Shown here piece by piece: positions 16,258 through 31,737 of a stretch of DNA of 32,000 nucleotides. The number at the start of each line of letters is the position of its first letter. Within the stretch, counting starts at the first letter, position 1. Origin of the DNA: Microcystis aeruginosa NIES-843 (GTDB lineage: Bacteria; Cyanobacteriota; Cyanobacteriia; Cyanobacteriales; Microcystaceae); assembly GCF_000010625.1 (NCBI RefSeq), contig NC_010296.1, positions 1,110,001 through 1,142,000 on the forward strand. The letters run 5' to 3'. Under the pieces are notes generated by a model that saw only the letters and a program-made list of their open reading frames with translations, was not told the origin of the DNA and searched no databases. The position numbers and the translations under genes were made by a program.

Positions 16258-18156
16258 TTAAACCGATTGCTCTAGCAAAATTGTCTGTTTACCCGATGTT
16301 AATAATAACTGGGTTTGCTTAATTTCTCCCTTGTGGTTACGCCATTGAATGTCAACGGGTAGAGCGGTATTAGGGTCAATTTTGCCTAAACCAAAGTGTA
16401 ATACTGGACTTCTCACGCCAGAATGACCATTGCCCCCATCTACCTGCGCCACCAGCTGACTGCCATCAGGTAGAGACACCTTAACCGCTGCGCCAATTGC
16501 GGGGATACCCATTTTCCCCTTTTCTGAAGAGGGATTAGGGGAGAGCGCAGGGTTTAAAAGCTCTAATTCCAGAGATTGACCGATATTTGGACTATCATTG
16601 CGATAAAAATAAGAGGTTTCCCACTGATTTGCCACTACAAAGTCTAAATCCCCATCTCCATCCACATCGGCGGTGGCAATTCCTCTGGTGACAGAGGGAT
16701 CATCTAAGCTTAATTGCGATGCCAAATCATAGTAACGTCCATCTTTACCCCGCACAAAAAAGGGATTATGTTGATGACCACTTAAATCGTCTCCATCTTG
16801 GAAATGAAACCAACTATTGGGGATTTTCAGGACTTGATCATTACTCATGGCTAACTCATGTAATTCCGGCCAACGATTGATGTCACCCTTACGAAATCCT
16901 GTAGCTTGTAACGCTTCTAACTCCCCATCATTATCAAAATCGCCGAATTTTGTTTCCCAACTCCAGCCACTACGAGAGACTCCCAAGGGTTCGCTTTTAT
17001 CGACATAAGGGGCGATTCCTCGGGACATTTTCTCCGTTTCTCCCGTACTGGTAAAGAGAAAATGACTTTCCTCTAGGGCGTATTCCGAAGCAATATTACT
17101 CACATAGATGTCTAGGAGTCCATCATGGTTAATATCTCCGAAATCTACCCCCATTCCCTTAAAGCTATCATGGCCCAGTACCTTAGAATTGGGTGTCGTT
17201 AAACCTTTTTGCCCTTCCAGTAAGGCAAATTGGAGATGTCCTCTAGTAGAGCGATTATGTAAGAGGCGATCGGGTCCGAAATCATTGGCAAAATAAATCT
17301 CTGGCAATAAATCCCCGTCTAAATCGGCTGTTCCGACGGCCAATGTCCAACCATGAGCAATTTTCTCCTCCAAAGCATCTTGGACTTCTTGATAAGTCAC
17401 TCCAGTGGTAGAGGCATCGGACCACAAGAAAACTCGATTTTTACCGCCATTATAAGCACGGGTCATCGAATCTTGCATTTTCTCGATTTTCTGAGAATTG
17501 ACATCCAAAATCTCGGCATTATCTGGGAAGTAATTGCCAATGATTAAGTCTGGGTGTCCGTCCCCATCTAAATCCGAGAAGGTTGCTGCATTGGTGTACC
17601 ATTTTTCCCTTTTTTGGCTGATTTGCTGCTGAAGATAACCTTGATCTTGCTTGATAAAAGCGATCGGTGTTCGTCCCCAATAATACACTAATAGATCCCT
17701 GAGTCCATCTTCATTGAGATCACTGGGAATACATCCCATCGGGGCCATGGTTTGGTCGTTATAGTCAAAATCGGTGACATTCAGGGTGAAGGGCTGATAA
17801 CGATTGCCCGTACCCGGAACAGGGGAGATAATCACCTGATTGCTTTGGGTTTCTACATGACAGAGATCATTATCCCAGCCATCTCCATCGAGATCCCCCA
17901 GGGCAACTGCCGCCCCAACTGCCGAAATCCAGGCCGAATGACGGCTTAAACTGGGATTTGTCGGTCTTTCTACTTGATAGGGTTGATTTTCTAATTCAGG
18001 TAAGGGAAAACGAGTAAAGGCAAAGCGAGAAGCGATCGCATCTCTTTCGGCCATTGATAGGGCGGGGAGACGGGAAACAGAGAATAAGACTAAAATTAGC
18101 CCCAATGCCAAGATAGACTTACTATGGCGTCGGATGAATTTTTCCAAACGATTCAT
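16258..18156 (-). CDS. FG-GAP/VCBS-repeat protein with C-terminal ASPIC/UnbV domain (CRTAC1 family; UnbV-like)
   Basis: The N-terminal signal/anchor is SILALGLILVLFSVSRLPALS. Repeated DLDGDG.PDL.., DINHDGLLD and DVDGDGDLDFVVAN are FG-GAP-type Ca-binding loops. The C-terminal GGNGHSGVRSPVLHFGLG resembles the ASPIC/UnbV signature. Confidence 0.75.
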   Translation of the reverse strand: MNRLEKFIRRHSKSILALGLILVLFSVSRLPALSMAERDAIASRFAFTRFPLPELENQPYQVERPTNPSLSRHSAWISAVGAAVALGDLDGDGWDNDLCHVETQSNQVIISPVPGTGNRYQPFTLNVTDFDYNDQTMAPMGCIPSDLNEDGLRDLLVYYWGRTPIAFIKQDQGYLQQQISQKREKWYTNAATFSDLDGDGHPDLIIGNYFPDNAEILDVNSQKIEKMQDSMTRAYNGGKNRVFLWSDASTTGVTYQEVQDALEEKIAHGWTLAVGTADLDGDLLPEIYFANDFGPDRLLHNRSTRGHLQFALLEGQKGLTTPNSKVLGHDSFKGMGVDFGDINHDGLLDIYVSNIASEYALEESHFLFTSTGETEKMSRGIAPYVDKSEPLGVSRSGWSWETKFGDFDNDGELEALQATGFRKGDINRWPELHELAMSNDQVLKIPNSWFHFQDGDDLSGHQHNPFFVRGKDGRYYDLASQLSLDDPSVTRGIATADVDGDGDLDFVVANQWETSYFYRNDSPNIGQSLELELLNPALSPNPSSEKGKMGIPAIGAAVKVSLPDGSQLVAQVDGGNGHSGVRSPVLHFGLGKIDPNTALPVDIQWRNHKGEIKQTQLLLTSGKQTILLEQSV

Positions 18157-18207: not shown

Positions 18208-19260
18208 TTAGGTGCGAAAATGACTTTGGATGGCTTGTCGCCATTGTTCATAGGCAGGGATTTGGTCGTGGTAATCTAAGCCGATGAGGGTATCATCAGT
18301 GATCTTGGCTGTTTCAGTAATAGCCATTCCACACAAAATTTGACAGGCTATTTCGGTATTTTCCTGGCAGTTTTCGGCTAGTAAACGTGCTTTTGCCGCA
18401 AAAGCTGCTCCCTGGGCTAATTCTGCTCTATAAGGTTCAGCCAGCTGTTTTAAATGTTGAATTTCTTCGGGAGACACTCCCCCCGCATAAGTACAAGCCA
18501 AGCCGATCCCACTCCATAAATGGGGTTGAAGCAGCGGGTCGAATTTTTGGATCTGATCGGCAATTTCGGCAATATTTGCCCCTTTCACAAACCAAAGACT
18601 GCGCCCTAACCCTTGGGCAAAGACAAGACGCGCATAACCCGATAATTCTTGAGGAGACTTTCTCTCTCGGATATACTTAGGCCAGGCAAAGTATCCTTGA
18701 TGAAATCCATAGCCGTCAAGGGCTAACCAACCTAATAGGGAATCTGGAAAATGTTGGGCAGAATCTGCTAATTTTTGGAGATAAAAGCGCAAAGAAAAGG
18801 GAATACGGGCTAATTGCCATCCTTTCCCTACATAGGCCATGTAAATATGCTTTTTCCCCTCGTTTGCTAAAAAATGCTCAAAGCGATCGCACTTACCCAG
18901 GGTTAAACAATCTAGCAGAGATAAAGCCATCGCTGCCCCTTCATAAGCAAATCCTCTCAGATTGAGGGTGACACCTTCAAGAAGAGGAAACAAGTCCGTG
19001 AGAGAATGAGCCATAATTGCTGCATTATAGCCATAGATAAAAGTTTGCCCGATCGTTTCCAAATATATCTGTTTTTGAGGCTGAACAGCCGGGCTGCGGC
19101 TTTGCGGATCACAGATGAATCCACGCTGATTAAAGGTTGCCGCTTGGGGTGAAAGGAGCAACAATCGTTGTGGAAAACGATTTACCTGCCTAGGAGAAAA
19201 TTTGTGATCAAAATTGACAGCAGGATGCTCGAAGGGTGCGCCTGAGAAATTAGATGCCAT
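18208..19260 (-). CDS. DUF1702-family protein (UnbL-like)
   Basis: FNQRGF, LETIGQTFIYGYNAA, LRGFAYEGAAMALSLLD, HIYMAYVGKGW and LDGYGFHQGYF fit my recollection of the DUF1702/UnbL family. The likely start is MASNFSG at 19260, whereas the ORF track extends to 19320. Confidence 0.6.
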   Translation of the reverse strand: MASNFSGAPFEHPAVNFDHKFSPRQVNRFPQRLLLLSPQAATFNQRGFICDPQSRSPAVQPQKQIYLETIGQTFIYGYNAAIMAHSLTDLFPLLEGVTLNLRGFAYEGAAMALSLLDCLTLGKCDRFEHFLANEGKKHIYMAYVGKGWQLARIPFSLRFYLQKLADSAQHFPDSLLGWLALDGYGFHQGYFAWPKYIRERKSPQELSGYARLVFAQGLGRSLWFVKGANIAEIADQIQKFDPLLQPHLWSGIGLACTYAGGVSPEEIQHLKQLAEPYRAELAQGAAFAAKARLLAENCQENTEIACQILCGMAITETAKITDDTLIGLDYHDQIPAYEQWRQAIQSHFRT

Positions 19261-19370
19261 TGTTAAAAAAAGTTGACAAAGTTGACAACCCTTGATGGGA
19301 GGCCGAAGATATGACCTCATGTTACCTTAAACAAAGTTTATTTGATGAATCCTTATCCCTGTTAACAACA
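19261..19370. promoter_or_regulatory. 110-bp divergent control region between the UnbL-like and DevB-like genes
   Basis: A tandem AGTTGACAA x2 places TTGACA at 19273-19278 and 19282-19287, and GAAGAT lies 17 nt after the second. Both start codons sit in the mirrored context AACAATGGC (19256-19264 and 19367-19375). Confidence 0.4.
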
Positions 19371-20678
19371 ATGGCTAACTTTCGCCTTCAAAATTCCTAT
19401 TCTTTAAAATATTGGTTTTGGGGTCTTTTAGGAGCTTTTATGGGATTTAGCTTGGGAACAACCGTTATTATCTTCTATTTTAGACCAGAATCATCCTTGA
19501 AAGCTTCCCAGTTATCGATTTCCCCGACGGTTTCTCCTGATACTCCCGAAGCTGTTGCTGCCCTTGGTTATCTTGAACCCCAAGGTGGAATTACTCAAAT
19601 ATCAGCTACTGCCTTTTTGGAAGGAAGTAGAGTAGATAAAATACTGGTAAAACAGGGAGAAAAAGTTGCAAAAGGCGAAATTATGGCTATTTTAGATAAT
19701 AATGCCCGTTTGCGAGCAGCCCTGAAACAAGCTCAAGCAAATCTGGGTTTAGCAGCATCTAAACTCGAAAAAGTGAGAGAAGGGGCAAAAAAAGGCGAAA
19801 TTATGGCTCAAGATTCCCGTATGCGTCAAAGCAAAGCGGAATTAGAGGGACAAATAATGAGGCAAACAGCAGCGATCTCTAGTTTGGAATCGGAACTTGA
19901 AGGGGAAAAACTAGGACAAAAAGCTACCGTTGAAAGAATTAAAGCAGAATTGAATAATTCTCTCACAGATTGTCAACGTTATCAATCTTTATACCGTAAT
20001 GGTGCAGTTTCTCAAGGGGAAAAAGAGCGATTTTGTTTAGAGGCGACAACTACACAAAAAAGACTCCAAGAAGCTGAGGCTAACTTGCAACGCATTACGA
20101 CTACCTTAGAACAAAAAATTCAGGAAGCCAGAGCCAATCTACAACGAACTCTTAATACTTTAGAACAACAAATTCAAGAAAACCAAGCTATGTTAAGTGC
20201 AGTTACGGAAATTCGTCCTGTTGATCTTCAAATTGCTCAAGATGAAGTAATGACAGCTAAGGCTAATGTAGAACGCGCTCAGGCGGAATTAGAATTATCC
20301 TATGTGCGTGCGCCCCATGCAGGAATAATTTTAAAAATTAATACTTTTCCTGGAGAATTAGTGAAAAATGAAGGGATTTTAGAATTGGGAAACATCCAAA
20401 AAATGTATGTGACAGCAGAAGTGTATGAAACCGATATTAGTCGAGTTAAATTAGGTCAATCTGTAACGATAAAAACCGATAAAATGCTCGGAGATTTAGA
20501 GGGAACTGTGGAAGAAATAGGTTGGAAAGTGGGACGACAAGATGTTTTAGGAACCGATCCTGTTGTCGATACAGATGCTAGAGTCGTCGAGGTAAAAATT
20601 AGCTTAGATCATCGCTCTAGTGCTAAAGTTAATCGGTTAACTAACTTAAAGGTTAATGTGATCATTCATCCTAACTAA
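19371..20678 (+). CDS. DevB-family membrane-fusion protein (HlyD-type ABC exporter adaptor)
   Basis: It has one N-terminal TM helix. VAALGYLEPQGGITQISA..EGSRVDKILVKQGEKVAKGEIMAILDN matches the DevB pattern, followed by a long coiled coil and C-terminal beta domains. The likely start is MANFRLQ at 19371, whereas the ORF track starts at 19311. Confidence 0.75.
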   Translation: MANFRLQNSYSLKYWFWGLLGAFMGFSLGTTVIIFYFRPESSLKASQLSISPTVSPDTPEAVAALGYLEPQGGITQISATAFLEGSRVDKILVKQGEKVAKGEIMAILDNNARLRAALKQAQANLGLAASKLEKVREGAKKGEIMAQDSRMRQSKAELEGQIMRQTAAISSLESELEGEKLGQKATVERIKAELNNSLTDCQRYQSLYRNGAVSQGEKERFCLEATTTQKRLQEAEANLQRITTTLEQKIQEARANLQRTLNTLEQQIQENQAMLSAVTEIRPVDLQIAQDEVMTAKANVERAQAELELSYVRAPHAGIILKINTFPGELVKNEGILELGNIQKMYVTAEVYETDISRVKLGQSVTIKTDKMLGDLEGTVEEIGWKVGRQDVLGTDPVVDTDARVVEVKISLDHRSSAKVNRLTNLKVNVIIHPN

Positions 20679-20694
20679 ATAACTCATTCAGAAG

Positions 20695-21858
20695 ATGAAT
20701 ATTCCCACTGCTTGGTTACAATTAGCTCATAAAAGAACTCGTTTAATTGTTGCACTATCTGGTATTATTTTTTCCACTGTAATTATTTTTATGCAGTTGG
20801 GAATTCGAGATGCTTTATTTGAGAGTGCTGTTCATTTACATAATAGTTTAGAAGGTGATGCTTTCCTGATTAGTCCTCGTTCTACATCCTTAATTGCCAT
20901 GGAAAGTTTTAGTGAGCGAAGACTATTACAAGTCTTATCCTTTAATGAAGTGGAATTAGTCAGTCCAATCTATGTAGGCTATGCTCAATGGAAAAATCCC
21001 GATACAAAAAACTATTGGCGTAATATTTTTGTAATTGGAATTGATTTAAGATATCAAGCATTTAAGGCTGTGGGAATCAAAGAAAATTGGCAAAAATTAA
21101 AGATAAAATATACCACCTTATTTGACCAAAATTCTCGGAGGGAGTTTGGAAATATTACTGAAGATTTCCAGAAGGGTAAAACTATTATTACCGAGGTGGG
21201 AAATTCTGGTAATAATCGAAAAATAGAAGTGGTTGGTCTCTTTGAATTAGGTACATCTTTTGGTTCAGATGGTAACTTACTAATGAGCTACCCTAACTTT
21301 TTAAGAATATTTCAGAATCGTTCATCTCGGTTCATTGATATTGGCTTAATTAAGTTTCAACCAGATATTGATCGGCAATCCTTACTCAAAAAGTTAAAGA
21401 AATATTTGCCGAAAGATGTCAAAATATTAAGCAAGCAAGAGTTTATTAACTTTGAAAAAAATTATTGGGCAACCAGTACAGCTATTGGTTTTATTTTTAA
21501 TTTGGGTGTATTTTTAGGATTAGTGGTCGGGATTGTGGTTGTTTATCAAATTCTTTATACCAATGTTGCAGAACACTTAGCAGAATATGCAACTCTAAAA
21601 GCAATGGGATATCACAATCGTTATCTTCTGTGGCTCGTCTTTCAGCAAGCTCTGATTATTGCAGTATTGGGTTATATTCCTGGCTTTTTATTAGGGATGA
21701 TTCAGTATTATTTTACCCAAAAATACACCTTACTTCCCATTGAAATGACCCCTACTAGAGCAATATTCGTCTTTGGTTTAACCTTGCTCATGTCCTTGAT
21801 TGCTGGAGCCACGGCTATTAATAAGCTCCAATATGCCGATCCTGCCGATATTTTTTAG
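20695..21858 (+). CDS. DevC-family ABC exporter permease (FtsX-like)
   Basis: The N-terminus MNIPTAWLQLAHKRTRLIVALSGIIFSTVIIFMQLG matches the DevC pattern. A large periplasmic loop is followed by three C-terminal TM helices. Confidence 0.75.
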   Translation: MNIPTAWLQLAHKRTRLIVALSGIIFSTVIIFMQLGIRDALFESAVHLHNSLEGDAFLISPRSTSLIAMESFSERRLLQVLSFNEVELVSPIYVGYAQWKNPDTKNYWRNIFVIGIDLRYQAFKAVGIKENWQKLKIKYTTLFDQNSRREFGNITEDFQKGKTIITEVGNSGNNRKIEVVGLFELGTSFGSDGNLLMSYPNFLRIFQNRSSRFIDIGLIKFQPDIDRQSLLKKLKKYLPKDVKILSKQEFINFEKNYWATSTAIGFIFNLGVFLGLVVGIVVVYQILYTNVAEHLAEYATLKAMGYHNRYLLWLVFQQALIIAVLGYIPGFLLGMIQYYFTQKYTLLPIEMTPTRAIFVFGLTLLMSLIAGATAINKLQYADPADIF

Positions 21859-22052: not shown

Positions 22053-22484
22053 TTAGATCGGGATGTGATAGTTTTCTAAAGCTAATTTCAGTTGAGCAGG
22101 AATTGGAGTGGGTCTGGTTTCACTATCCTCTCGTCGCATACAGGCCGTCTGTTGTTCCCCTTTTGCTACTAATTCTTCACCTTCATCAGTCACTCGCCAA
22201 TATTCAAATAACATGGTAATTCGGTTTTGTTTAATCTCTCCTAAACGCATCCGAATAATAACATGATCAAAGGCAAATAATTCGGACAGATACTCACAGG
22301 ATACTCGAACCGTTACTAAGGCTAATCCTTGGCATAATTCTGTGATAATATCTGGGGCATTATCTTTGAGAAACATTTCTCGACAACGACCTTGCCATTG
22401 CACATAATTGGCATAATAAACATTACCGACTAAATTGGTTTCTTGAAAACTGACAATGTGATGATATTCGTAGGCTTTCATCAT
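22053..22484 (-). CDS. Hotdog-fold 4HBT-type thioesterase (TEBC / enediyne-PKS-associated type)
   Basis: The 143-aa product has YHHIVSFQETNLVGNVYYANYVQWQGRCREMFL, which is typical of 4-hydroxybenzoyl-CoA-thioesterase-like hotdog proteins. Its size matches the thioesterases partnered with PKSE. Confidence 0.7.
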   Translation of the reverse strand: MMKAYEYHHIVSFQETNLVGNVYYANYVQWQGRCREMFLKDNAPDIITELCQGLALVTVRVSCEYLSELFAFDHVIIRMRLGEIKQNRITMLFEYWRVTDEGEELVAKGEQQTACMRREDSETRPTPIPAQLKLALENYHIPI

Positions 22485-24802: not shown

Positions 24803-25096
24803 TTAATACGAGGAGGAGAGCAATCATGCCTTTTTTAAGCACCATAGAAGAAATGGCTCTCGAAGAAGGAGCTAAATTAACTAACCAAAAACATATCATT
24901 TTGGCTTTACAAAGTCGTTTTGGGGAGATTCCTAATTCCCTGATTGAAACGATTAACCAAATTGAGGATGTGTCTGTCTTAGAGGGTCTTTTTGTCCCCA
25001 GTATTACTATTAATTCATTGGGGGAATTTCAACAGCTAGTTAATGACTCTTTATCTTAATTAATACGAGGAGGAGAGCAATCATGCCTTTTTTAAG
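24551..25096 (+). repeat. Tandem duplication, unit ~257 bp (2 full units + 33-bp third start)
   Basis: TACGAGGAGG...ATGCCTTTTTTAAG restarts at 24551, 24807 and 25064, with the ATGs at 24569, 24826 and 25083. Confidence 0.9.
24826..25059 (+). CDS. Stand-alone DUF4351-like domain protein created by tandem duplication
   Basis: Its 77 aa are ~92% identical to the last 77 aa of the preceding gene. It carries its own GAGGAGG about 10 nt upstream of the ATG. Confidence 0.55.
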   Translation: MPFLSTIEEMALEEGAKLTNQKHIILALQSRFGEIPNSLIETINQIEDVSVLEGLFVPSITINSLGEFQQLVNDSLS

Positions 25097-25193: not shown

Positions 25194-25760
25194 TTAAACT
25201 AATCTCCCCTCATTCATAGGTGGAAAACGATGATAATACATGGCAATCATCATGGGAATTAGAACCATTAAGTTATAGAAAAGATGCAGTTCTAACCGAG
25301 GAAACCAAATTTGTCCAATACTAATAGGAACGCGAGAATCCCATAAGTTTTGACCAATAATTGCCTGTCCTAAGAGTAAAGCGTGTTCAAAATGATGATA
25401 GAATTGTAATCCTAAAGCCAAATCCCACCAAAGACGAGCTTTTCCATGAAAAGAAGGACGAAAAATGGCTAACCCTAATAACATAAAAAGAGCGTGTCCA
25501 TAGTGTAGCCATTCCGAGCGCATTAACCAAGGTTTCCAGAGTCCTAATAACCCTAAACATTCTGGTCTCGGCCATCCTAAACCCCACAATTGATAAGCTT
25601 GAATAATATGTTCTGAGATGTGGGCAATAGTCACTATCATAAAGATTTGCATCCCCAATTTATGCCAGCGTCCATTCATCGCATAAACGAAAGAACGGAT
25701 GATATTTGAAATCAGTTGAATAGGGTTTCTTTGGTTAGGAATTTGTCGAACTGTGGTCAT
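25194..25760 (-). CDS. Small polytopic membrane protein with three His-box-like motifs
   Basis: The 188-aa product has about 4-5 hydrophobic helices and the motifs HISEH, HYGH and HHFEH at helix edges. It starts 49 nt after the PKS stop codon on the same strand. Confidence 0.6.
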   Translation of the reverse strand: MTTVRQIPNQRNPIQLISNIIRSFVYAMNGRWHKLGMQIFMIVTIAHISEHIIQAYQLWGLGWPRPECLGLLGLWKPWLMRSEWLHYGHALFMLLGLAIFRPSFHGKARLWWDLALGLQFYHHFEHALLLGQAIIGQNLWDSRVPISIGQIWFPRLELHLFYNLMVLIPMMIAMYYHRFPPMNEGRLV

Positions 25761-25809: not shown

Positions 25810-28800
25810 TCAGAAAAACTTTGATAGTTCTGTCTGAAGTAAGTCCGATTTTTCTGGAACTGTCTGGACAAATATTGCCAAGATGAAAGCTGTCTTGGTT
25901 TCTCGGAAATAAACAGGTAAAGTGATAATTAAATCCTTTCCTGAAGATAACCACAAAATAGGGGATAAAGGGGTTGATTGTTGAGAGAAAGACGATAAAG
26001 TTAACGGGATATCGAGACTCAAACCCGCTTTCTTAATACTTTCTTTAGCAGACCAAATGCGAGTCGCTGCAATATTTAAATCCTCATGATTCTCTTGACT
26101 AATTACCTCCGCTAAATTAAAGGAATTTTCCCCCAATAAATCCCGCCACATCTGCACATTGCGGGGGATAATCGGTTCCAGATCGCATCCTGACGCACCC
26201 TTAAGCACAAGGGTTAAATCTTCGGCATGAGACACCGAAACCGCCTCGTTATCGCTTAATTCGGGCTTGCCATCCCCCCGACGCTGAATCACACTAGGGG
26301 ATGAGGTTAACATCCCTAAACTGCGATCGCTTCTGACTCGTCTTTCTACCGTTGCATCCTGATCGAGAATTAAAGTTAAATCGACATTAGGCATCACCTC
26401 CTTAATCTTTCGTTCTAAATAACAGGGTAAAAGGGCTGGAATCCAGGTATCTTGAGGATTTCTGTGTTTAATCACCTTTAATTCCAATCCTTGCCACACT
26501 TCTAAGAGATTGCCATCGTTATTGAATACCTCAAGATCATAGACAAAGGTATCTCCTTGATGAAGTCTTTCTTTGGCTGAAACAAACTGATTTTCGCCTA
26601 AATTGACAGAATATACCGTTAAGCGTTCTATGCCAGTGGGTAGAATAGTGGCATGGGGAACACAAGCTTGTAAAGCATGGATAACGGCATCTCTTGCCCC
26701 TGCATCGCCTAAAATCAGGGATTGAGGTAAATAACGACTAAACCAAGCAGTTTTTTGCTCAATGTTAATTTCTGCAATACATTCGGTTGCTTTGAGATGA
26801 GAATAACCCTTAATTCGTTGAAATCTTGCTTTATGGAACAATAAATGACCATATAAGTCCGTATCTGGGTTAATTTGAGGGTTATTTTTTCCTTCTTTAA
26901 GGGGGACAGGGGGGATCATTGGGCGACAGTCTGGCTCCCCCACAGAAGAATGGCTGATGATGGCTTCAAAATGATCGATACTAAACCCTGTATTGGCACA
27001 GCGAATAACGGCCTTAACCTTTCCAGAATCGGTGATTAAGGTAGCAATTTGTATCTTTAAGGGTTGATCGGCAGAAACCACGATCGGACGGTTAAATTTA
27101 ACCGATTCAAACCTTAATCCTCCAGTTTCCCCCTTGTTAAGGGTTTGATCCTCCTTCCTTGCTAAGGTGGGGAGTAATGCAGTGGCCACCTGTGCGATCG
27201 CTTCTAACCCCAGGACACCGGGGAAAATGTATTCTCCTTGATAAACATGATCTTGTAAATAAGGATCATTGTCTAAGGATAATTCTGCTTCAGTAATCAG
27301 TTCAATTCCCGTGTAATCAACTTTCTTTGTCTCTAAAAAGCGTAAAAAAGACAATTCTTGCGGTTTTAAGCTTAAAGTCGGCGGTTCACCAAAACGCCCA
27401 GCGATAATGACAGAGGCAGTGGGTAGGGATTGATTTAAAAGTAAATGTAAGTATTTAATGCCAATATCGGGAGAAATAGGGGTAATACCTTCATTTCTTA
27501 GCTTTTCAACTGTTCCTAAACGTTCTCCCATGCCAATACCGGACCAAACCGACCATTCTAGGTTTAAACAGCGACAATTAGGGTATTTTCGACTAAATTC
27601 CGCTACAATATTCCCTAACCATTCATTGGCTAACCCATAGTCTGCTTCTCCTTTCAATCCAGTTTCGGCAATAATTGAACCGAAGCTGATTAAATAGTTG
27701 AGAGAATCGGGATTAATTTCCGTTAAGATATGTTGCAAACCCTTGACTTTTGGGGCTAAAGTTGCTAAGAAATCTTCTGGCTCAAGATGTTGAATCAATT
27801 TCGGTGTATTAACCCCTGCACCGTGTAAAATGCCCGTAATTTCTCCTAAATTTGTCTTAATTTCGGCGATAGTTTGCTGAACTGACTCAGCATCACTGAC
27901 ATCACAAGAATAATAATGGACTTGGATGTTTGCAGACTTCATTCTTGCTAAATTTTCGGCTAATTCTCGGTTATCTTCAGGTTGAGAACGTCCTAAAATC
28001 GCTAAGGTGGCTTTATTTTCTTTAGCTAAGGATAAGGCACATTCTGAGGCAATACCTCTCCCTCCCCCCGTCACCAAAAGAAGCTCCTTGATTTTGCTTT
28101 TATTTGGCCTTTTTAGGGCTTTTTTCTGCTTAGGGTTATCGGTATCTTTTTCTAACCCTAACAAGTTTAATTGACGAAGAAACCGTTTTCCGTTTTCATC
28201 ATAATAAACTTCTGTATAGCTATCGGTTGCAGTGATTTCTGAGAGAATGATATTAACTGCATTGGGATGATGAAAAGGAATATCAATCACACAGGTAGGA
28301 ATTTGACGATTTTCTAGATAAAAAGTTCTCGCAAAGGACGCATATCCTCCTCCTTGTTGAATCAAAATTAAGGGTTTTTTTTCTTTTATAGATAATTTTG
28401 CCCCTTTTAAAAGCAAATCGATTTCTGATTTATCAGGATAGGGTTTTAAACAAATAATAATCCCTTTTTCCTGCTCATGCTTTAAGGTGGGTTGTAAAAG
28501 AGATAGGTTAGGTAATAAAGGATGATCAGCATGGGCGATAATATGCCAATTTCCCGCTTTTTCTCGATTTATTTGCTTTTTATCTGATTTAATTAACGGT
28601 TTTTCGATTAATTCAACCGTAAACGCACGCACCCAATTATCAACACCCATAGGGATTGATTCTTGAGGAATTTGAGGATTATTTTTGCCTAATTCTTCTA
28701 AAGCTGCTGCTAGATACTGAATAGTTGCATTGGCATAATCTGTCGGTGAATGGGGAGGAGATAAGTCTAACTGACGCGCTGCTTCGATCACTAATTGACT

Positions 28801-31737
28801 GACACTGATAGAATTAAGGTGCAGATCCGCCAGCAAGCGATGATGATTTTCAATGGTTTCTAGGGGTAACTCTGTTTTTTGTGCGACTAATTGACGAATA
28901 ACTTCAATTTTTGAGGTTTGAGGTTTCAGGTTTGAGGTATTAGGTTTGAGGTTTTGGCTATGATTAGGTAATAAAAGATCAATATTCTCTACTTTTGCCT
29001 GTTGACTTTTGCCCTTTGCCTTGATCTCACATGGATTGCCAATAAAATGGGGTTGATAGTCTAAATTAAAGGGACGACTAAATCTATCTTCAAATAACCC
29101 TTGATAGTTAACCTTGACACCATTAACAAACATCACTGCAACCGTTTTCAATAACCCTTGTAAAGACTCACTACTGCTATCGAGAGAAATTACGGGAATA
29201 TCCGTTATATCTGCCACTAAACGGCTTAATATCGAACCAGAACCCACTTCAATGAATAAATCAACCTCTTTCTCTGCTGACTTGACTGCATCGATGAAGC
29301 GCACGGGTGAGGTGATTTGTTCTAACAAAAGCGAGCGCCAGTCGGTATTTAATGGCAATTTTTCGCCTGTTACGGTAGAAATAACCGTTTTTTCCAGGGA
29401 ATTTAAGGGATAAGTTTGTAAATAATCTTCTAAGGGTTGCACAGCCCGGGCCACTAGGGGAGAATGGAAAGCGTGGGAGACAGGCAAATAAACGGTTTTA
29501 ATGCCTTTATTTTGGGCTTTTTCAACAACATCTTTAATCCCTAAGGCCTCTCCTGAGATTATTGTCTGATAGGGTGAATTTAATCCCGCAATCTCAACGA
29601 TACGTCCATTTAATAAACTTTTAACCGTTTCTGCATCGGCGTTAATGCTGGCCATTCTACCTGTTGGGTGGCCCAGTTGTGCCATTGCTTGACCGCGAAT
29701 TTTAGCTAGATTAATTAATTGAGTCTTATCATAGGCATTTGCCCAAAATAAAGCGCATAATTCCCCTAAACTGTGTCCTATGGCTAAATCTGCTTTAATA
29801 TTTAAGTTTTCTAAGAGTTGTAACCCCCCTAGGCAAGCCGTAATGATCGCCGGTTGAGCAATATTCGTCACCGTGTTATCCTTACCCTTGGCTAACTGAG
29901 CCTTGTTATATAATTGTTTAATCACAGGAAAACGTCTTTCCCAGAGTCCCCCATGAAGATAAACTGGTGCGGATTGCCCCGGAAAGAGAAAACCTATTTT
30001 ATTGATCTGTTTTTCGTTATTGGTAAAGATATTATCTAAATTTTGACCGGGGGGGATCAACGAGCGCAAGCCTTGCGCTCCTACAAGGTGATTGGTTAAG
30101 CTATCGGGGGAAGATGCAATAATGGCCAGACGATAGGGTAAATGAGGATTGACCTTTTTCGCTAATTCAACGGCAAGATCCGTCATTTCTGACTGGGATA
30201 TGCGAGGAACAATATTTAATAACCGATTAACCTGTGCTTGTAAGTCTTCTTGACTATTTGCACTCAATAGGAATAACTCCGCATCTTGGGGAGAATGGAT
30301 TAATTTTTGTTCCTGTGGCGTTAAAGTGTGACGACGAATCTGACTTAATCCCTCTATGATAATATGACTATTAATGCCCCCAAAACCCATGGCACTCACT
30401 CCTGCCCGTAAAGGTAAGGAATTTGGCCAGATTTGCCCCTCTTTTAATACCTGTAACCTTGCCTTGTCTTCGGTTAACCGAGCCTGAGGGCGATCGCATC
30501 CCGTCACCGGTGGTAAAATTTGACGATGAACCGCCATAGTCGCCTTAATTAACCCTGCTATCCCTGCCGCCGCCTTAGTATGGCCAATATTCGCTTTAAT
30601 TGAACCAATAACGGCTTTATTTACCGTATCTGGATGAATACGAGATAAAACCTCTAATTCGGTTCCATCACCCACCGCCGTTCCCGTACCATGGCCTTCA
30701 AAATAAGCTATAGTATCCCCCGTAAATTCAGCCCGTTTATAGGCGCGATTTAAAGCAAATAACTGTCCTTCCACTTCCGGGCGAGTAATTCCGCCTTTGC
30801 CATCGGAAGAAATCCCCCAACCCTGAATAACAGCATAAATCCGTTTATTTTGGGCTAGGGCATCCCCATGACGCATTAACACCAGAAAACCGCATCCTTC
30901 CCCCGGAATAAACCCATTAGACCCTTGATCATACACTTTCATCTCCCCAGAGGCTAAGGCCCCCGTTTTAGCAAAACCCACCAACTCAAAAGGGTCCATA
31001 CTAATATCCACACCCCCGACTAAAGCGATATCTAAATCTTCAGCGACTAAAGCCGAACAACCATTCGCTACTGCCAGTAAAGAGGAACTACAAGCCCCAT
31101 CGACGATATATCCGCCCCCTTTTAAGTCAAAATAATTACAAATTCTCCCCGCTATCGTATTCGAGAGATTTCCCGCTAAAGATTCCTCTCCAATCGGTTC
31201 AAAGGGTTCTTTAAAGCGATTTTCTAATTCATTTAAGAAAATTTGCCGTTCTTTGTCCGATAATCCTTGTTTTAATAATTGTTCTTCTACCCTATGACGC
31301 ACATAGGGCCAACGCAATCTTAGGGTATTAGCCCGCGATAACTCGCCTGTGAGGGTATTTCCCAGTAAAACCCCGGTTGTTTCTTTATTTAACCCCTTTC
31401 CGTCGGGAAATCCGGCATCATTCAACGCCTGAGACGCAATATCTAACGCTAACCAGTGGGCTAAATCAGCCGAACGAAAGGTACTCCCCACCACTTTATA
31501 AGCAATGCGATCGAATTCATAGCCCTCAATAACGGCAGCTTGAGTCGAATAAATGACATCGGGGGCGCTTTTATCGGGAGAATAGTAGTCACTTAACGAT
31601 AATCGCTCTGAGGGAAAGCGACGAAATGCCCGACGCTGAGACAGGACATTTTCCCATAATTCCTGTGGAGAATCGGCATCAGGATAAAGACAAGCCATGC
31701 CAACAATAGCAATTTGAGGAGAAGCTTTCATAGTCAA
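25810..31737 (-). CDS. Iterative type I polyketide synthase, enediyne-type (PKSE): KS-AT-ACP-KR-DH-PPTase
   Basis: KS motifs are DGACSSSL (Cys216), EGHGTGT and NIGHTKAAAG. AT motifs are GFLFPGQSA, GHSLGE (Ser656) and HAFHS. The ACP-like motif is DLHLNSIS (Ser976). KR has the VTGGGRGIA Rossmann motif and ADYGLAN. DH has HVYQGEYIFPG (HxxxGxxxxP). The C-terminal PPTase-like motif is WSAKESIKKA. Confidence 0.85.
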   Translation of the reverse strand: MTMKASPQIAIVGMACLYPDADSPQELWENVLSQRRAFRRFPSERLSLSDYYSPDKSAPDVIYSTQAAVIEGYEFDRIAYKVVGSTFRSADLAHWLALDIASQALNDAGFPDGKGLNKETTGVLLGNTLTGELSRANTLRLRWPYVRHRVEEQLLKQGLSDKERQIFLNELENRFKEPFEPIGEESLAGNLSNTIAGRICNYFDLKGGGYIVDGACSSSLLAVANGCSALVAEDLDIALVGGVDISMDPFELVGFAKTGALASGEMKVYDQGSNGFIPGEGCGFLVLMRHGDALAQNKRIYAVIQGWGISSDGKGGITRPEVEGQLFALNRAYKRAEFTGDTIAYFEGHGTGTAVGDGTELEVLSRIHPDTVNKAVIGSIKANIGHTKAAAGIAGLIKATMAVHRQILPPVTGCDRPQARLTEDKARLQVLKEGQIWPNSLPLRAGVSAMGFGGINSHIIIEGLSQIRRHTLTPQEQKLIHSPQDAELFLLSANSQEDLQAQVNRLLNIVPRISQSEMTDLAVELAKKVNPHLPYRLAIIASSPDSLTNHLVGAQGLRSLIPPGQNLDNIFTNNEKQINKIGFLFPGQSAPVYLHGGLWERRFPVIKQLYNKAQLAKGKDNTVTNIAQPAIITACLGGLQLLENLNIKADLAIGHSLGELCALFWANAYDKTQLINLAKIRGQAMAQLGHPTGRMASINADAETVKSLLNGRIVEIAGLNSPYQTIISGEALGIKDVVEKAQNKGIKTVYLPVSHAFHSPLVARAVQPLEDYLQTYPLNSLEKTVISTVTGEKLPLNTDWRSLLLEQITSPVRFIDAVKSAEKEVDLFIEVGSGSILSRLVADITDIPVISLDSSSESLQGLLKTVAVMFVNGVKVNYQGLFEDRFSRPFNLDYQPHFIGNPCEIKAKGKSQQAKVENIDLLLPNHSQNLKPNTSNLKPQTSKIEVIRQLVAQKTELPLETIENHHRLLADLHLNSISVSQLVIEAARQLDLSPPHSPTDYANATIQYLAAALEELGKNNPQIPQESIPMGVDNWVRAFTVELIEKPLIKSDKKQINREKAGNWHIIAHADHPLLPNLSLLQPTLKHEQEKGIIICLKPYPDKSEIDLLLKGAKLSIKEKKPLILIQQGGGYASFARTFYLENRQIPTCVIDIPFHHPNAVNIILSEITATDSYTEVYYDENGKRFLRQLNLLGLEKDTDNPKQKKALKRPNKSKIKELLLVTGGGRGIASECALSLAKENKATLAILGRSQPEDNRELAENLARMKSANIQVHYYSCDVSDAESVQQTIAEIKTNLGEITGILHGAGVNTPKLIQHLEPEDFLATLAPKVKGLQHILTEINPDSLNYLISFGSIIAETGLKGEADYGLANEWLGNIVAEFSRKYPNCRCLNLEWSVWSGIGMGERLGTVEKLRNEGITPISPDIGIKYLHLLLNQSLPTASVIIAGRFGEPPTLSLKPQELSFLRFLETKKVDYTGIELITEAELSLDNDPYLQDHVYQGEYIFPGVLGLEAIAQVATALLPTLARKEDQTLNKGETGGLRFESVKFNRPIVVSADQPLKIQIATLITDSGKVKAVIRCANTGFSIDHFEAIISHSSVGEPDCRPMIPPVPLKEGKNNPQINPDTDLYGHLLFHKARFQRIKGYSHLKATECIAEINIEQKTAWFSRYLPQSLILGDAGARDAVIHALQACVPHATILPTGIERLTVYSVNLGENQFVSAKERLHQGDTFVYDLEVFNNDGNLLEVWQGLELKVIKHRNPQDTWIPALLPCYLERKIKEVMPNVDLTLILDQDATVERRVRSDRSLGMLTSSPSVIQRRGDGKPELSDNEAVSVSHAEDLTLVLKGASGCDLEPIIPRNVQMWRDLLGENSFNLAEVISQENHEDLNIAATRIWSAKESIKKAGLSLDIPLTLSSFSQQSTPLSPILWLSSGKDLIITLPVYFRETKTAFILAIFVQTVPEKSDLLQTELSKFF
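28905..28969. repeat. GAGGTTT-rich repeat element embedded in frame in the PKS AT-ACP linker
   Basis: CAATTTTTGAGGTTTGAGGTTTCAGGTTTGAGGTATTAGGTTTGAGGTTTTGGCTATGATTAGGT encodes ..PNHSQNLKPNTSNLKPQTSKIE.. on the minus strand. Its ends match the intergenic copy at 15989..16025. Confidence 0.75.

What the first reader, a model, noticed from the sequence alone, without database searches (positions are those of the whole stretch)
16258..31737. Enediyne-type (PKSE) cassette in a cyanobacterial genome with an atypical accessory gene set and no assignable product
Four protein types that co-occur in the conserved actinomycete enediyne 'warhead/minimal' cassette (PKSE, TEBC, UNBL, UNBV, UNBU) lie within 15.5 kb. 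They are a 1975-aa KS-AT-ACP-KR-DH-PPTase synthase (25810..31737), a 143-aa hotdog thioesterase (22053..22484), a DUF1702/UnbL-like protein (18208..19260) and a signal-anchored FG-GAP + ASPIC/UnbV protein (16258..18156). To my knowledge all structurally characterised enediynes come from actinomycetes, and no cyanobacterial product of such a cassette has been assigned. The window shows none of the usual tailoring genes: no glycosyltransferase, P450, methyltransferase, second PKS or apoprotein. Instead the cassette is paired with a DevBC-type exporter, an SCP2 lipid-carrier-like protein and a His-box membrane protein. That combination points to an exported, lipid-like polyene or polyyne-type metabolite rather than a classical enediyne.
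Basis: partly seen in the sequence, partly recalled or inferred. Interest (0 to 1): 0.85.

Follow-up and report, generated by a model that had tools for sequence, protein, structure and literature searches.

The report
Orphan enediyne-type PKS cassette in Microcystis
The window carries a real and apparently functional copy of the five-gene "enediyne polyketide synthase cassette" in the bloom-forming cyanobacterium Microcystis aeruginosa, but this orphan cluster has been in the literature since 2008, so only its still-unknown product is an open question.

Summary
The PKS (25810..31737, -) has the order KS-AT-ACP-KR-DH-PPTase with all catalytic motifs intact. It aligns end to end at 41-42% identity with Streptomyces enediyne PKSs. 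Its KS falls in the PKSE clade (100% bootstrap), not with PfaA-like or modular KSs. The thioesterase matches SgcE10, CalE7 and DynE7 (E 1e-38 to 1e-43). DUF1702/UnbL and UnbV are confirmed. The fifth cassette gene, unbU, is also present and is cut by the window's right edge (31850..32000).

The window matches Microcystis aeruginosa NIES-843. Its "enediyne-type" PKS was listed by Frangeul 2008, Penn 2014 (transcribed in a bloom), Calteau 2014 and Yancey 2022. The same bare cassette occurs in many cyanobacteria, Acidobacteriota, Planctomycetota, Chloroflexota and Poribacteria.

The "atypical" layout is partly a rearrangement with a toxin-antitoxin pair and a nuclease-like gene inserted. DevBC and the SCP2-like gene are conserved only in a Microcystis/Crocosphaera/Okeania subgroup.

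One piece is little known. The 188-aa membrane protein with two HxxEH motifs recurs beside cassettes, is fused to UnbV in one metagenomic protein, and has no Pfam or PDB match.

The likely product is an exported linear C15 polyene or polyyne. This is unproven. Novelty: already known. Interest: about 0.35.

The parts
31850..32000 (-). 3' end (last 49 codons plus stop) of unbU (E5-type). The full protein is a 319-aa polytopic membrane protein. The gene is cut by the window edge.
   Evidence: The reading frame is visible and is identical to the C-terminus of L001:1-933. The full-length protein is named 'enediyne biosynthesis protein UnbU' by NCBI. It has a weak RnfD/NqrB match. It is 50-51% identical to Streptomyces UnbU/E5 and 60-70% identical to other phyla.
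25810..31737 (-). PKSE: an iterative type I PKS. Domains by residue: KS 8-413, AT about 580-862, ACP 946-1011, KR 1220-1399, DH 1478-1762, PPTase about 1790-1960. The probable true start is the ATG at 31731.
   Evidence: Pfam domains. All catalytic motifs are intact and PKSE-typical. It is 41-42% identical over residues 8-1956 to S. globisporus SgcE-type and S. clavuligerus PKSEs. The KS is 60-62% identical to Streptomyces PKSE KS, against 36% for a PfaA-like KS. The PKSE clade has 100% bootstrap support.
25194..25760 (-). 188-aa four-helix membrane protein with two HxxEH motifs plus ExxH and ExH (6 His and 4 Glu invariant). It behaves as a conserved 'sixth gene' of many non-actinomycete cassettes. 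Its function is unknown; I infer a membrane-embedded di-metal enzyme or redox partner.
   Evidence: Invariant residues. No Pfam or PDB sequence hit. AF2 model with pLDDT 93.8. No fold match in PDB or BFVD. It lies next to PKSE or TE in Crocosphaera, Scytonema, Herpetosiphonaceae and the second Microcystis PKSE type. P0347 is a natural fusion of this domain to an UnbV-type protein.
23861..25059 (+). Insertion that is not part of the pathway. It comprises a 313-aa Rpn/DUF4351-like putative nuclease or transposase (23861..24802) and a 77-aa duplicate of its C-terminus (24826..25059).
   Evidence: UniRef names it 'Transposase'. There are weak TIGR01784 and DUF4351 matches. The copy number varies between Microcystis strains. 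It is absent from the cassettes of other genera.
23184..23806 (-). Insertion that is not part of the pathway. It is a toxin-antitoxin pair: a PIN-domain toxin (23184..23597) and a 70-aa upstream partner (23594..23806) that overlaps it by 4 bases.
   Evidence: PIN 6.4e-8. The gene pair is conserved in Microcystis loci and absent from other genera.
22788..23171 (+). 127-aa SCP2-like protein, a possible lipid or hydrophobic-intermediate carrier. It is divergent from the TE gene.
   Evidence: Named SCP2 or sterol carrier protein by UniRef and JGI. Only weak support was found here: Pfam SCP2 E 0.017 in 2 of 7 homologues; PDB 2cx7 and 1wfr at E about 1.5, aligned in register; Foldseek SCP2 4jgx at E 0.057 on a low-confidence model. 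It sits in the same position next to TE in Crocosphaera, Okeania and Microcystaceae.
22053..22484 (-). TEBC/E10-type hotdog thioesterase, which releases the polyene from PKSE.
   Evidence: 4i4j (SgcE10, 'ACP-polyene thioesterase') 2.3e-43, CalE7 1.7e-41, DynE7 1.2e-38; the block NLVGNVYYxNYxxWQGRCREMFL is conserved. JGI names it 'enediyne biosynthesis thioesterase'.
19311..21858 (+). DevB-type membrane fusion protein (19311..20678) and DevC-type FtsX permease (20695..21858). These are two of the three inner-membrane parts of a DevBCA-type exporter. No DevA ATPase is in the window.
   Evidence: TIGR02971 at 305 bits (cut-off 129) and TIGR01185 at 472 bits (cut-off 290). The same pair lies next to the cassette in Crocosphaera, Cyanothece, Microcystaceae and Leptothoe. 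A MacB-type FtsX/ABC/MFP set lies next to TE in a Pyrinomonadaceae MAG.
18208..19260 (-). UnbL/E3-type protein (DUF1702), 350 aa.
   Evidence: PF08012 5.9e-105. It is 38.5% identical to S. clavuligerus DUF1702 and 44-51% identical to other phyla.
16258..18156 (-). UnbV/E4-type protein: an N-terminal membrane anchor, an FG-GAP/VCBS beta-propeller and a C-terminal ASPIC/UnbV domain. It is predicted to face the periplasm.
   Evidence: FG-GAP_3 2e-27, FG-GAP 3e-17, UnbV_ASPIC 8.6e-12. It is 44-45% identical over its full length to S. clavuligerus UnbV and 58-67% identical to other phyla.

Best explanation
The locus is the Microcystis aeruginosa (NIES-843-type) copy of the five-gene minimal enediyne PKS cassette: unbU, pksE, TE, unbL and unbV. 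It is rearranged and interrupted by selfish genes, but it is intact.

Mechanism by homology with SgcE/CalE8/DynE8 systems (inferred):
1. The PKSE loads its own ACP with phosphopantetheine using its C-terminal PPTase domain.
2. It builds an ACP-bound conjugated C16 polyene from malonyl units.
3. The hotdog thioesterase releases this as the C15 hydrocarbon 1,3,5,7,9,11,13-pentadecaheptaene.
4. UnbL, the periplasm-facing UnbV and the membrane protein UnbU then process the polyene. In Streptomyces the cassette alone is reported to give an iodoheptaene, a diiodotetrayne and pentaynes. That is Gui et al. 2024, PMID 38831037, quoted from memory because I could not read it here.

No homologues of the actinomycete core-cyclisation or tailoring genes are present. 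The end product is therefore most likely a linear, hydrophobic C15 polyene or polyyne (possibly halogenated), not a 9- or 10-membered enediyne. It may be further handled by the conserved 188-aa double-HxxEH membrane protein and an SCP2-like carrier. Export would be through a DevBC-type pump that uses an unlinked ATPase and outer-membrane channel.

Shown: gene identities, intact motifs, clade membership, synteny and co-occurrence, and published transcript reads. Inferred: every chemical step and the export.
For: - Organism and locus identity: exact protein matches to NIES-843 entries BAG01098, BAG01100 and BAG01103.
- Domain order and motifs.
- End-to-end 41-42% identity to Streptomyces PKSEs, including the PPTase domain.
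- The KS is 60-62% identical to Streptomyces PKSE KS, against 36% for a PfaA-like KS and about 30% for modular KSs. The PKSE clade has 100% bootstrap support and the non-actinomycete subclade 98%.
- The PfaA model TIGR02813 scores 544 bits against a cut-off of 1010.
- The thioesterase matches SgcE10, CalE7 and DynE7 at E 1e-38 to 1e-43.
- UnbL, UnbV and UnbU are confirmed.
- Co-occurrence: among 58 UnbU loci with enough flank, all five genes are present in 36 of 39 non-cyanobacterial loci and 14 of 19 cyanobacterial loci. The rest are rearranged or out of range.
- No homologue in the window for SgcE6, DUF5987, GMC oxidoreductase, TIGR03084, P450, methyltransferase and other non-cassette genes of three Streptomyces loci.
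- Exporter genes pass the NCBIfam cut-offs and recur next to cassettes.
- The cluster is conserved across many Microcystis assemblies. KS transcript reads were found in a bloom (PMC4139720, table row 'NIES-843 enediyne', 168 reads).
- The PKSE/TE product is a discrete precursor in actinomycetes (PMC9992847).
Against: - No chemistry has been done on any cyanobacterial cassette, so the product is unknown.
- The roles of E3, E4 and E5 are known to me only from a paper I could not read here.
- Genes for cyclisation could be unlinked.
- DevA and an outer-membrane factor are not in the window, so export by DevBC is an inference.
- The SCP2 assignment is not statistically supported.
- The 188-aa protein has no assignable biochemistry. 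A homologue also occurs in a phage-like genome, so its role need not be specific to this pathway.
- The cassette is split into three transcription units on both strands, with selfish genes between them. Coordinated expression is therefore not guaranteed.
Confidence: 0.6

Rival explanations
1. The cassette makes a true cyclic (9- or 10-membered) enediyne warhead. The cyclisation, tailoring and self-resistance genes would lie elsewhere in the genome.
For: All five genes that define enediyne clusters are present and intact. Published annotations predict 'enediynes' for this cluster (bioRxiv 10.1101/2022.10.12.511943).
Against: No homologue of any non-cassette gene from three Streptomyces enediyne loci is found in the window. 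None is apparent within 10 kb on either side in several Microcystis strains or in other phyla. No apoprotein or resistance gene was recognised. The non-actinomycete KSs form a separate clade (98% bootstrap; PMC10308959). No cyclic enediyne has been reported from these phyla (PMC10308959).
Confidence: 0.1
2. The product is the unmodified or lightly modified polyene hydrocarbon, serving a physiological role in the cell envelope or sheath (pigment, antioxidant or membrane component) rather than acting as a toxin. On this view UnbL, UnbV and UnbU act in placing or attaching it, not in forming alkynes.
For: The bare cassette is very widely conserved across unrelated phyla at high protein identity: UnbU 60-78% and UnbV 52-68%. 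That pattern resembles a housekeeping-like 'secondary lipid' function. UnbV is anchored outside the cytoplasm. A PEP-CTERM (exosortase-sorted) protein recurs beside the cassette, in 10 of 19 cyanobacterial and 7 of 39 other loci. DevBCA-type pumps are known for exporting envelope glycolipids (established knowledge).
Against: In Streptomyces the cassette is reported to yield polyynes (Gui et al. 2024, from memory). The cassette is patchily distributed among strains and species, which is typical of specialised metabolism. No pigment or lipid has been linked to it.
Confidence: 0.2
3. The cluster is a decaying, non-functional remnant disrupted by mobile and toxin-antitoxin genes.
For: The canonical gene order is broken. 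A TA pair and a nuclease/transposase-like gene with a duplicated fragment sit inside the cluster. In one strain devB is split into two ORFs (L002).
Against: All ORFs in the window are full length and all catalytic motifs are intact. The same arrangement is kept at 96-100% protein identity in many Microcystis assemblies. KS transcripts were detected in a bloom (PMC4139720).
Confidence: 0.05
4. The synthase is a PUFA (PfaA) or heterocyst-glycolipid (HglE) type synthase, not a PKSE.
For: The best NCBIfam hits include the PfaA model. PKSE and PUFA KSs are known to be sister groups (PMC4247773).
Against: The PfaA model scores 544 bits, below its cut-off of 1010. There is a single ACP and a C-terminal PPTase, and no CLF, ER or PfaB partners. 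The KS is 36% identical to a PfaA-like KS against 60-62% to PKSE KS. The PKSE clade has 100% bootstrap support. All four accessory cassette genes are present.
Confidence: 0.01

Closest known systems
Minimal enediyne PKS cassette of actinomycetes (PKSE/E, TEBC/E10, UNBL/E3, UNBV/E4, UNBU/E5). Examples are the SgcE-type locus of Streptomyces globisporus pTFSG1 (L018) and the S. clavuligerus plasmid locus (L019).
   Same: All five proteins are present. The PKSE has the same domain order, including the self-PPTase. Identities are PKSE 41-42%, KS 60%, TE 49-51%, UnbU 50-51%, UnbV 44-45% and UnbL 38.5%. Relatives in other genera keep the same gene order as S. clavuligerus.
   Different: The Microcystis copy is rearranged into three divergent units with selfish genes inserted. 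None of the surrounding actinomycete genes (flavin reductase E6, DUF5987, GMC oxidoreductase, TIGR03084, P450, methyltransferase, regulators) has a homologue. Extra partners are present (188-aa HxxEH protein, SCP2-like protein, DevBC). The KS lies in a separate non-actinomycete subclade (98% bootstrap).
Bare PKSE cassettes of other cyanobacteria and other phyla: Crocosphaera sp. XPORK-15E, Okeania, Nostoc sp. PCC 7524, Scytonema hofmannii PCC 7110, and Pyrinomonadaceae, Herpetosiphonaceae and Poribacteria MAGs.
   Same: They carry the same five genes at 44-78% identity and have no obvious tailoring genes. Crocosphaera shares DevBC, the SCP2-like gene (60%) and the 188-aa gene (73%).
   Different: Most keep the compact order UnbL-UnbV-UnbU-PKSE-(188 aa)-TE on one strand. 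Microcystis has UnbL-UnbV moved about 6 kb beyond TE, behind the devBC pair, plus TA and nuclease insertions.
Second PKSE cassette type found in some Microcystis strains (P0015; loci L021 and L022).
   Same: It has the five cassette genes plus a 205-aa homologue of the 188-aa protein between PKSE and TE.
   Different: Its PKSE is only 53% identical. It keeps the canonical order. It is followed by AraC, HEAT_2, DUF6073, SnoaL and AHSA1 genes that are also seen near the Scytonema cassette. UnbV is split into two ORFs there.
PUFA and heterocyst-glycolipid synthases (PfaA/HglE type).
   Same: They are related iterative KS-AT-ACP-KR-DH enzymes and the sister KS clade (PMC4247773). DevBCA-type export is known for heterocyst glycolipids.
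   Different: The window enzyme has a single ACP and a C-terminal PPTase, with no PfaB, PfaC or PfaD partners. The KS is only 36% identical. The PfaA model scores below its cut-off.

Membership tests
Minimal enediyne PKS cassette (PKSE, TEBC, UNBL, UNBV, UNBU) | Single iterative type I PKS with the order KS-AT-ACP-KR-DH and a C-terminal PPTase domain | tested here: met
   Pfam domains in that order. The PPTase motifs and all active-site motifs align with Streptomyces PKSEs. The alignment is collinear over residues 8-1956.
Minimal enediyne PKS cassette (PKSE, TEBC, UNBL, UNBV, UNBU) | The KS domain belongs to the PKSE clade, not to PUFA/HglE or modular clades | tested here: met
   60-62% identity to Streptomyces PKSE KS, against 36% for a PfaA-like KS and about 30% for modular KSs. 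NJ tree on 457 columns: the PKSE clade is recovered in 100 of 100 bootstraps. The outgroup sampling is small (4 sequences).
Minimal enediyne PKS cassette (PKSE, TEBC, UNBL, UNBV, UNBU) | Hotdog thioesterase of the CalE7/SgcE10/DynE7 type | tested here: met
   E 2.3e-43, 1.7e-41 and 1.2e-38 to the solved structures.
Minimal enediyne PKS cassette (PKSE, TEBC, UNBL, UNBV, UNBU) | UNBL (DUF1702) protein | tested here: met
   PF08012 5.9e-105. 38.5% identity to the S. clavuligerus protein.
Minimal enediyne PKS cassette (PKSE, TEBC, UNBL, UNBV, UNBU) | UNBV (FG-GAP/VCBS repeats plus an ASPIC/UnbV C-terminal domain) | tested here: met
   Pfam. 44-45% full-length identity to Streptomyces UnbV.
Minimal enediyne PKS cassette (PKSE, TEBC, UNBL, UNBV, UNBU) | UNBU polytopic membrane protein next to the PKSE | tested here: met
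   Only the last 49 codons are in the window (31850..32000). The full gene in identical loci is named UnbU by NCBI and is 50-51% identical to the Streptomyces proteins.
Minimal enediyne PKS cassette (PKSE, TEBC, UNBL, UNBV, UNBU) | PKSE plus TE produce 1,3,5,7,9,11,13-pentadecaheptaene | not testable with these tools
   This needs heterologous expression and LC-MS/UV analysis.
Enediyne natural-product gene cluster (9- or 10-membered core) | Additional conserved core-maturation and tailoring genes around the cassette (flavin reductase E6, E7/E8/E9/E11-type genes, P450s, glycosyl- or methyltransferases, apoprotein or resistance genes) | tested here: not met
   No homologue in the window for any non-cassette gene of three Streptomyces enediyne loci. 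The window's Pfam content shows none. The flanks in other strains show none. Unlinked genes elsewhere in the genome could not be examined.
PfaA / PUFA synthase | Score above the TIGR02813 cut-off; tandem ACPs; PfaB, PfaC and PfaD partners | tested here: not met
   544 bits against a cut-off of 1010. One PP-binding domain. No partner genes in the window.
DevBCA-type tripartite ABC exporter | DevB membrane fusion protein and DevC permease above the family cut-offs | tested here: met
   TIGR02971 at 305 bits against 129; TIGR01185 at 472 bits against 290.
DevBCA-type tripartite ABC exporter | DevA ATPase encoded with devBC | tested here: not met
   No ABC ATPase ORF is in the window. The ATPase must be supplied from elsewhere if the pump works.
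SCP2 sterol/lipid carrier fold (for the 127-aa protein) | Significant match to the SCP2 profile or fold | tested here: inconclusive
   Pfam SCP2 at E 0.017 in 2 of 7 homologues. PDB 2cx7 and 1wfr at E about 1.5. The model has pLDDT 49 and the best SCP2 fold hit is E 0.057. The predicted secondary-structure order is compatible with SCP2.
Membrane fatty-acid desaturase/hydroxylase 'His-box' enzymes (for the 188-aa protein) | Match to FA_desaturase or FA_hydroxylase profiles, or to their fold | tested here: not met
   No Pfam hit for 42 family members at E up to 1. No PDB sequence hit. No fold hit at E <= 0.001 despite a model with pLDDT 93.8. The motifs are HxxEH x2, ExxH and ExH, not HxxxH/HxxHH.

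The most novel reading that the evidence does not exclude
The conserved 188-aa membrane protein founds a new family of membrane-embedded di-metal enzymes. It has a pseudo-twofold four-helix bundle, two HxxEH motifs plus ExxH and ExH, and is fused to UnbV in one metagenomic protein. On this reading it works with UnbV, UnbU and UnbL at the membrane-periplasm interface. Together they would turn the PKSE-derived C15 heptaene into a new exported linear (halo)polyyne or acyclic ene-diyne allelochemical in bloom-forming cyanobacteria. That chemistry could also explain acyclic enediyne metabolites such as the fischerellins.
Probability: 0.2. Interest if true: 0.7.

Novelty: already known. Interest (0 to 1): 0.35.

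Why it matters
Enediyne-type PKS cassettes are now known to be common outside actinomycetes. UnbU relatives were confirmed in at least 351 matched stretches of a collection holding one genome per species. Yet I found no product reported from any non-actinomycete. Microcystis is culturable, ecologically important and heavily sampled by metagenomics and metatranscriptomics. Its cassette is therefore a practical test case for what the bare cassette makes and what it does in blooms, for example as an allelochemical, a grazer deterrent or an envelope lipid.

The value of this finding lies in that open product question and in the uncharacterised sixth gene. It does not lie in the existence of the cluster, which has been documented since 2008.

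Tried and rejected
- A literature search on UnbU/UnbL/UnbV/DUF1702 returned only noise because terms match at word starts.
- Gui et al. 2024 (PMC11658463) is not held. Its conclusions are quoted from memory and marked as such.
- Searches for a cyanobacterial PKSE product or polyyne found nothing relevant.
- The homologue search for the SCP2-like protein returned only Microcystis sequences. Homologues had to be taken from loci, and these were not admissible for structure prediction.
- The single-sequence AF2 model of the SCP2-like protein was poor (pLDDT 49). Its fold search is therefore not meaningful.
- The 188-aa family has no Pfam, PDB-sequence, PDB-fold or BFVD-fold match.
- The phage-like homologue has no match in the GenBank phage collection.
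- The idea that the 188-aa protein is a classic His-box desaturase or acetylenase was rejected for lack of any profile or fold similarity.
- The PUFA/HglE reading was rejected.
- The ABC-2 permease at 14829..15608 was considered as a cluster member and rejected. It is absent or replaced in some Microcystis strains that carry the cassette (L001, L006 and L007) and is absent next to cassettes elsewhere.
- The first bootstrap read-out was unusable for deep nodes because of rooting. It was recomputed as bipartitions.


Full report
**1. What is in the window.**
The ORF map and profile searches give the following layout.

The left half of the window holds ordinary cyanobacterial genes:
- rlmN-like radical SAM, 975..2015
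- petH-type FNR with a CpcD domain, 2596..3816
- ChaN-like protein
- inositol monophosphatase
- a GTPase
- an AT-rich stretch at about 8-12 kb with toxin-antitoxin genes
- an alpha/beta hydrolase
- PAPS reductase
- an ABC-2 permease

From 16258 to the right edge lies the cluster, in this order:
- unbV, 16258..18156 (-)
- unbL, 18208..19260 (-)
- devB, 19311..20678 (+)
- devC, 20695..21858 (+)
- TE, 22053..22484 (-)
- a 127-aa SCP2-like gene, 22788..23171 (+)
- a PIN toxin with its 70-aa partner, 23184..23806 (-)
- a 313-aa Rpn/DUF4351-like gene plus a 77-aa duplicate of its C-terminus, 23861..25059 (+)
- a 188-aa membrane protein, 25194..25760 (-)
- the 1973/1975-aa PKS, 25810..31737 (-)
- the last 49 codons of a further gene, 31850..32000 (-)

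**2. Checking the observation.**
- The PKS has KS, AT, ACP, KR and DH domains in that order, plus a weak ACPS match near the C-terminus.
- The thioesterase matches the three solved enediyne thioesterases: SgcE10 at 2.3e-43, CalE7 at 1.7e-41 and DynE7 at 1.2e-38. The next best hotdog protein scores only 3e-10.
- DUF1702 scores 5.9e-105. UnbV carries FG-GAP repeats and the UnbV_ASPIC domain.
- DevB and DevC pass the curated NCBIfam cut-offs.

The truncated gene at the right edge is the C-terminus of a 319-aa membrane protein. NCBI names it 'enediyne biosynthesis protein UnbU'. It is 50-51% identical to the UnbU/E5 genes of two Streptomyces enediyne loci. The cassette is therefore complete, with five genes rather than four.

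**3. Origin of the window.**
Several window proteins are identical to entries of Microcystis aeruginosa NIES-843 (BAG01098, BAG01100, BAG01103). The same arrangement is found in many Microcystis genomes and bloom metagenomes.

**4. Is the synthase a PKSE?**
- All active-site motifs are present: KS Cys/His/His, AT GHSLGE and HAFH, the PKSE-typical ACP motif LHLNSIS, the KR glycine loop and Tyr, DH HxxxGxxxxP, and the PPTase motifs CDLE and WSAKESIKKA. They align with Streptomyces PKSEs.
- The protein aligns over residues 8-1956 at 41-42% identity with two Streptomyces PKSEs. One is the PKSE of S. globisporus pTFSG1, a locus in which sgcE6 is annotated. The other is the PKSE of the S. clavuligerus plasmid locus.
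- Against all PLSDB plasmids, the KS domain is 60-62% identical to Streptomyces KSs that sit next to UnbU and UnbV genes. The next class is a Nostoc flagelliforme PKS beside a PfaB gene, at 35-36%. Modular KSs are at about 30%.
- In a neighbour-joining tree (457 columns, 100 bootstraps), the PKSE-type KSs form a clade in 100 of 100 replicates. The non-actinomycete sequences, including the window, form a subclade in 98 of 100. The PfaA-like KS is the sister group.
- The PfaA model scores 544 bits against a cut-off of 1010.

This matches published trees (PMC4247773; PMC10308959).

**5. Co-occurrence.**
Contexts of six PKS homologues show the compact order UnbL-UnbV-UnbU-PKSE-TE. The six are Crocosphaera, Nostoc PCC 7524, Scytonema PCC 7110, and Pyrinomonadaceae, Herpetosiphonaceae and Poribacteria MAGs. 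This is the same order as in S. clavuligerus.

A scan of one genome per species with UnbU as query confirmed at least 351 relatives, and 80 loci were kept. Of the 58 loci with enough flank:
- 36 of 39 non-cyanobacterial loci carry all five genes.
- 14 of 19 cyanobacterial loci carry all five genes. The exceptions are rearranged clusters such as Microcystis, or genes just out of range.

The accessory genes are much less general:

| Gene | Cyanobacterial loci | Other loci |
|---|---|---|
| SCP2-like | 6 of 19 (Microcystis, Microcystaceae, Crocosphaera, Okeania) | 0 of 39 |
| DevB | 6 of 19 | 0 of 39 |
| DevC | 9 of 19 | 2 of 39 |
| 188-aa protein | 9 of 19 | 3 of 39 |
| PEP-CTERM protein (just outside the window in Microcystis) | 10 of 19 | 7 of 39 |

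The PIN/antitoxin pair and the Rpn-like gene are confined to Microcystis and vary between strains. They are insertions, not pathway genes.

**6. What is missing.**
I translated every annotated non-cassette gene of three Streptomyces enediyne loci and searched the window. These included SgcE6 flavin reductase, DUF5987, GMC oxidoreductase, TIGR03084 protein, P450s, a methyltransferase, SgcJ-like protein, a carotenoid-oxygenase-like protein and regulators. None has a homologue in the window. The 4 kb upstream of unbU in a Microcystis contig holds only a Uma2 nuclease-like gene, the PEP-CTERM protein and a pirin. The locus is thus a bare cassette plus a few cyanobacterial partners.

**7. The 188-aa protein.**
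This is the least understood part of the cluster.
- It has 104 homologues in the word-indexed search, none of them named. About 690 representatives appear in the exhaustive profile search.
- An alignment of 42 members shows these invariant residues: H46, E49 and H50; E82 and H85; H121, E124 and H125; E156 and H158; plus Q53, Q56, R64, Q131, Y161 and N162.
- The AlphaFold model is confident (pLDDT 93.8). It shows four long hydrophobic helices, each carrying one of these His/Glu groups. This is a pseudo-twofold arrangement, HxxEH + ExxH and HxxEH + ExH.
- There is no Pfam hit, no PDB sequence hit and no significant fold hit in PDB or BFVD.
- One representative (P0347, 801 aa) is a fusion of this domain to a full UnbV-type protein with FG-GAP_3 and UnbV_ASPIC domains. 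Together with the conserved position between PKSE and TE, this argues for a functional link to UnbV.
- A 158-aa homologue sits in a phage-like genome, so the family is not exclusive to cassettes.

I infer a membrane-embedded metal centre, either a di-metal enzyme or a redox partner. This is an inference from residue type and geometry only.

**8. The SCP2-like protein.**
Database names call it an SCP2 or sterol carrier protein. My tests gave only weak, though mutually consistent, signals:
- Pfam SCP2 at E 0.017 in 2 of 7 homologues.
- PDB SCP2 entries 2cx7 and 1wfr at E about 1.5, aligned in register.
- A low-confidence model whose secondary-structure order fits SCP2, with a non-significant Foldseek hit to yeast SCP2.

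I treat the assignment as plausible but unproven.

**9. Mechanism.**
Shown: identity of the parts, intact motifs, conservation, and published transcript reads for the NIES-843 KS in a bloom (PMC4139720).

Inferred from the actinomycete systems:
1. The PKSE phosphopantetheinylates itself and makes an ACP-bound conjugated polyene.
2. The TE releases pentadecaheptaene. In actinomycetes this is a discrete precursor of enediyne cores (PMC9992847).
3. The E3, E4 and E5 proteins process it further. From memory of Gui et al. 2024 (PMID 38831037, cited in PMC10760148 but not readable here), the five-gene cassette alone yields an iodoheptaene, a diiodotetrayne and pentaynes.

No cyclisation or tailoring genes accompany the Microcystis cassette, whereas an exporter and a putative lipid carrier do. 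I put about 0.95 on the cassette identity. I put about 0.5-0.6 on the 'linear exported polyene or polyyne' product.

**10. Comparison with what is known, and novelty.**
The cluster itself is already in the literature:
- Frangeul et al. 2008 list one 'enedyine type' PKS in NIES-843 and in PCC 7806 (PMC2442094).
- Penn et al. 2014 list 'NIES-843 enediyne' with transcript reads (PMC4139720).
- Calteau et al. 2014 show cyanobacterial enediyne-type clusters and a KS clade (PMC4247773).
- Yancey et al. [quoted passage not shown] That description fits this locus; UnbU is 77-78% identical to Okeania.
- Singh et al. 2023 report non-actinobacterial enediyne KS clades that include Cyanobacteria, with no compounds known (PMC10308959).

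Hence the novelty is 'already known'.

Three things remain open: the product, the roles of UnbL, UnbV and UnbU outside actinomycetes, and the 188-aa family. A side lead is that cyanobacteria do make acyclic enediyne-containing fischerellins (PMC4849077). I know of no assigned genes for them. This is a lead, not evidence.

**11. Verdict.**
Interest is 0.35.

Noticed in passing
window 23184..25059: Selfish genes sit inside the biosynthetic cluster: a PIN toxin with a 70-aa partner that overlaps it by 4 bases, and a 313-aa Rpn/DUF4351-like gene. The latter is followed by a 77-aa ORF (24826..25059) that is a near-exact tandem duplicate of its C-terminal 77 residues. The copy number of this fragment differs between Microcystis strains.
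   Followed up: partly
L028 and L029, 10001..10477 (contigs of 112-196 kb): A 158-aa homologue (P0313, 53% identity) of the 188-aa HxxEH membrane protein lies in a phage-like genome. Its neighbours include Thy1, dUTPase, Hen1, PNKP ligase, HNH, NUMOD3 and terminase-like genes. No match was found in the GenBank phage collection.
   Followed up: partly
P0347 (801 aa, metagenomic protein): A natural fusion of the 188-aa family domain (residues 3-162) to a full UnbV-type protein (FG-GAP_3 and UnbV_ASPIC). In this fusion the second HxxEH motif is degenerate (NFFEH).
   Followed up: partly
L011:1314..2132 (just beyond the window's right edge in Microcystis); also L012, L013 and L015: A 272-aa PEP-CTERM sorting-domain protein recurs next to PKSE cassettes in Microcystis, Crocosphaera, Nostoc PCC 7524 and Acidobacteriota. 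It is present in 10 of 19 cyanobacterial and 7 of 39 other loci. This hints at a link with exosortase-dependent surface proteins.
   Followed up: partly
L021 and L022 (e.g. M. aeruginosa KW): Some Microcystis strains carry a second, different PKSE cassette (PKSE 53% identical) in the canonical order. It has a 205-aa HxxEH-family gene between PKSE and TE. It is followed by AraC, HEAT_2, DUF6073, SnoaL and AHSA1 genes, which also flank the Scytonema PCC 7110 cassette. UnbV is split into two ORFs there.
   Followed up: partly
L020 (Sinorhizobium meliloti T073 pSymA, 233109..261519): A rhizobial symbiosis megaplasmid encodes an enediyne-type thioesterase (52% identity) and a divergent PKSE-type KS (47% identity). 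The KS branches at the base of the PKSE clade. The region is unannotated in PLSDB.
   Followed up: partly
L030 (JBIPMW010000365.1): A 4.9-kb contig carries unbU and pksE 99% identical to Microcystis but is binned as a Crocinitomicaceae (Bacteroidota) MAG. This is most likely a binning error, not horizontal transfer.
   Followed up: no
window 8000..12000: An AT-rich stretch (GC 0.34-0.36) holds a BrnT-family toxin (9760..10092). It also holds two ORFs (9594..9830 and 11701..11904) that share a nearly identical 45-residue C-terminus (TDWERVKSM.DAEIEANALSDPDALPFDDDWENAAIISAYNKLTSQ). This looks like a duplicated antitoxin-like gene.
   Followed up: no
L024 (Streptomyces sp. NBC_00523 plasmid): This actinomycete enediyne locus has two tandem DUF1702 (UnbL) paralogues downstream of the TE and flavin reductase. 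The gene order differs from that of S. clavuligerus.
   Followed up: no
L002:11807..13178: In one complete Microcystis genome (CP191409.1), devB is called as two ORFs of 250 and 211 aa. This suggests a frameshift or stop in that strain's exporter gene.
   Followed up: no
window 357..779: A DUF4277 ORF, typical of the N-terminal fragment of an IS-family transposase, lies at the left end of the window. The same domain also flanks the second Microcystis PKSE cassette (L021:1..373).
   Followed up: no
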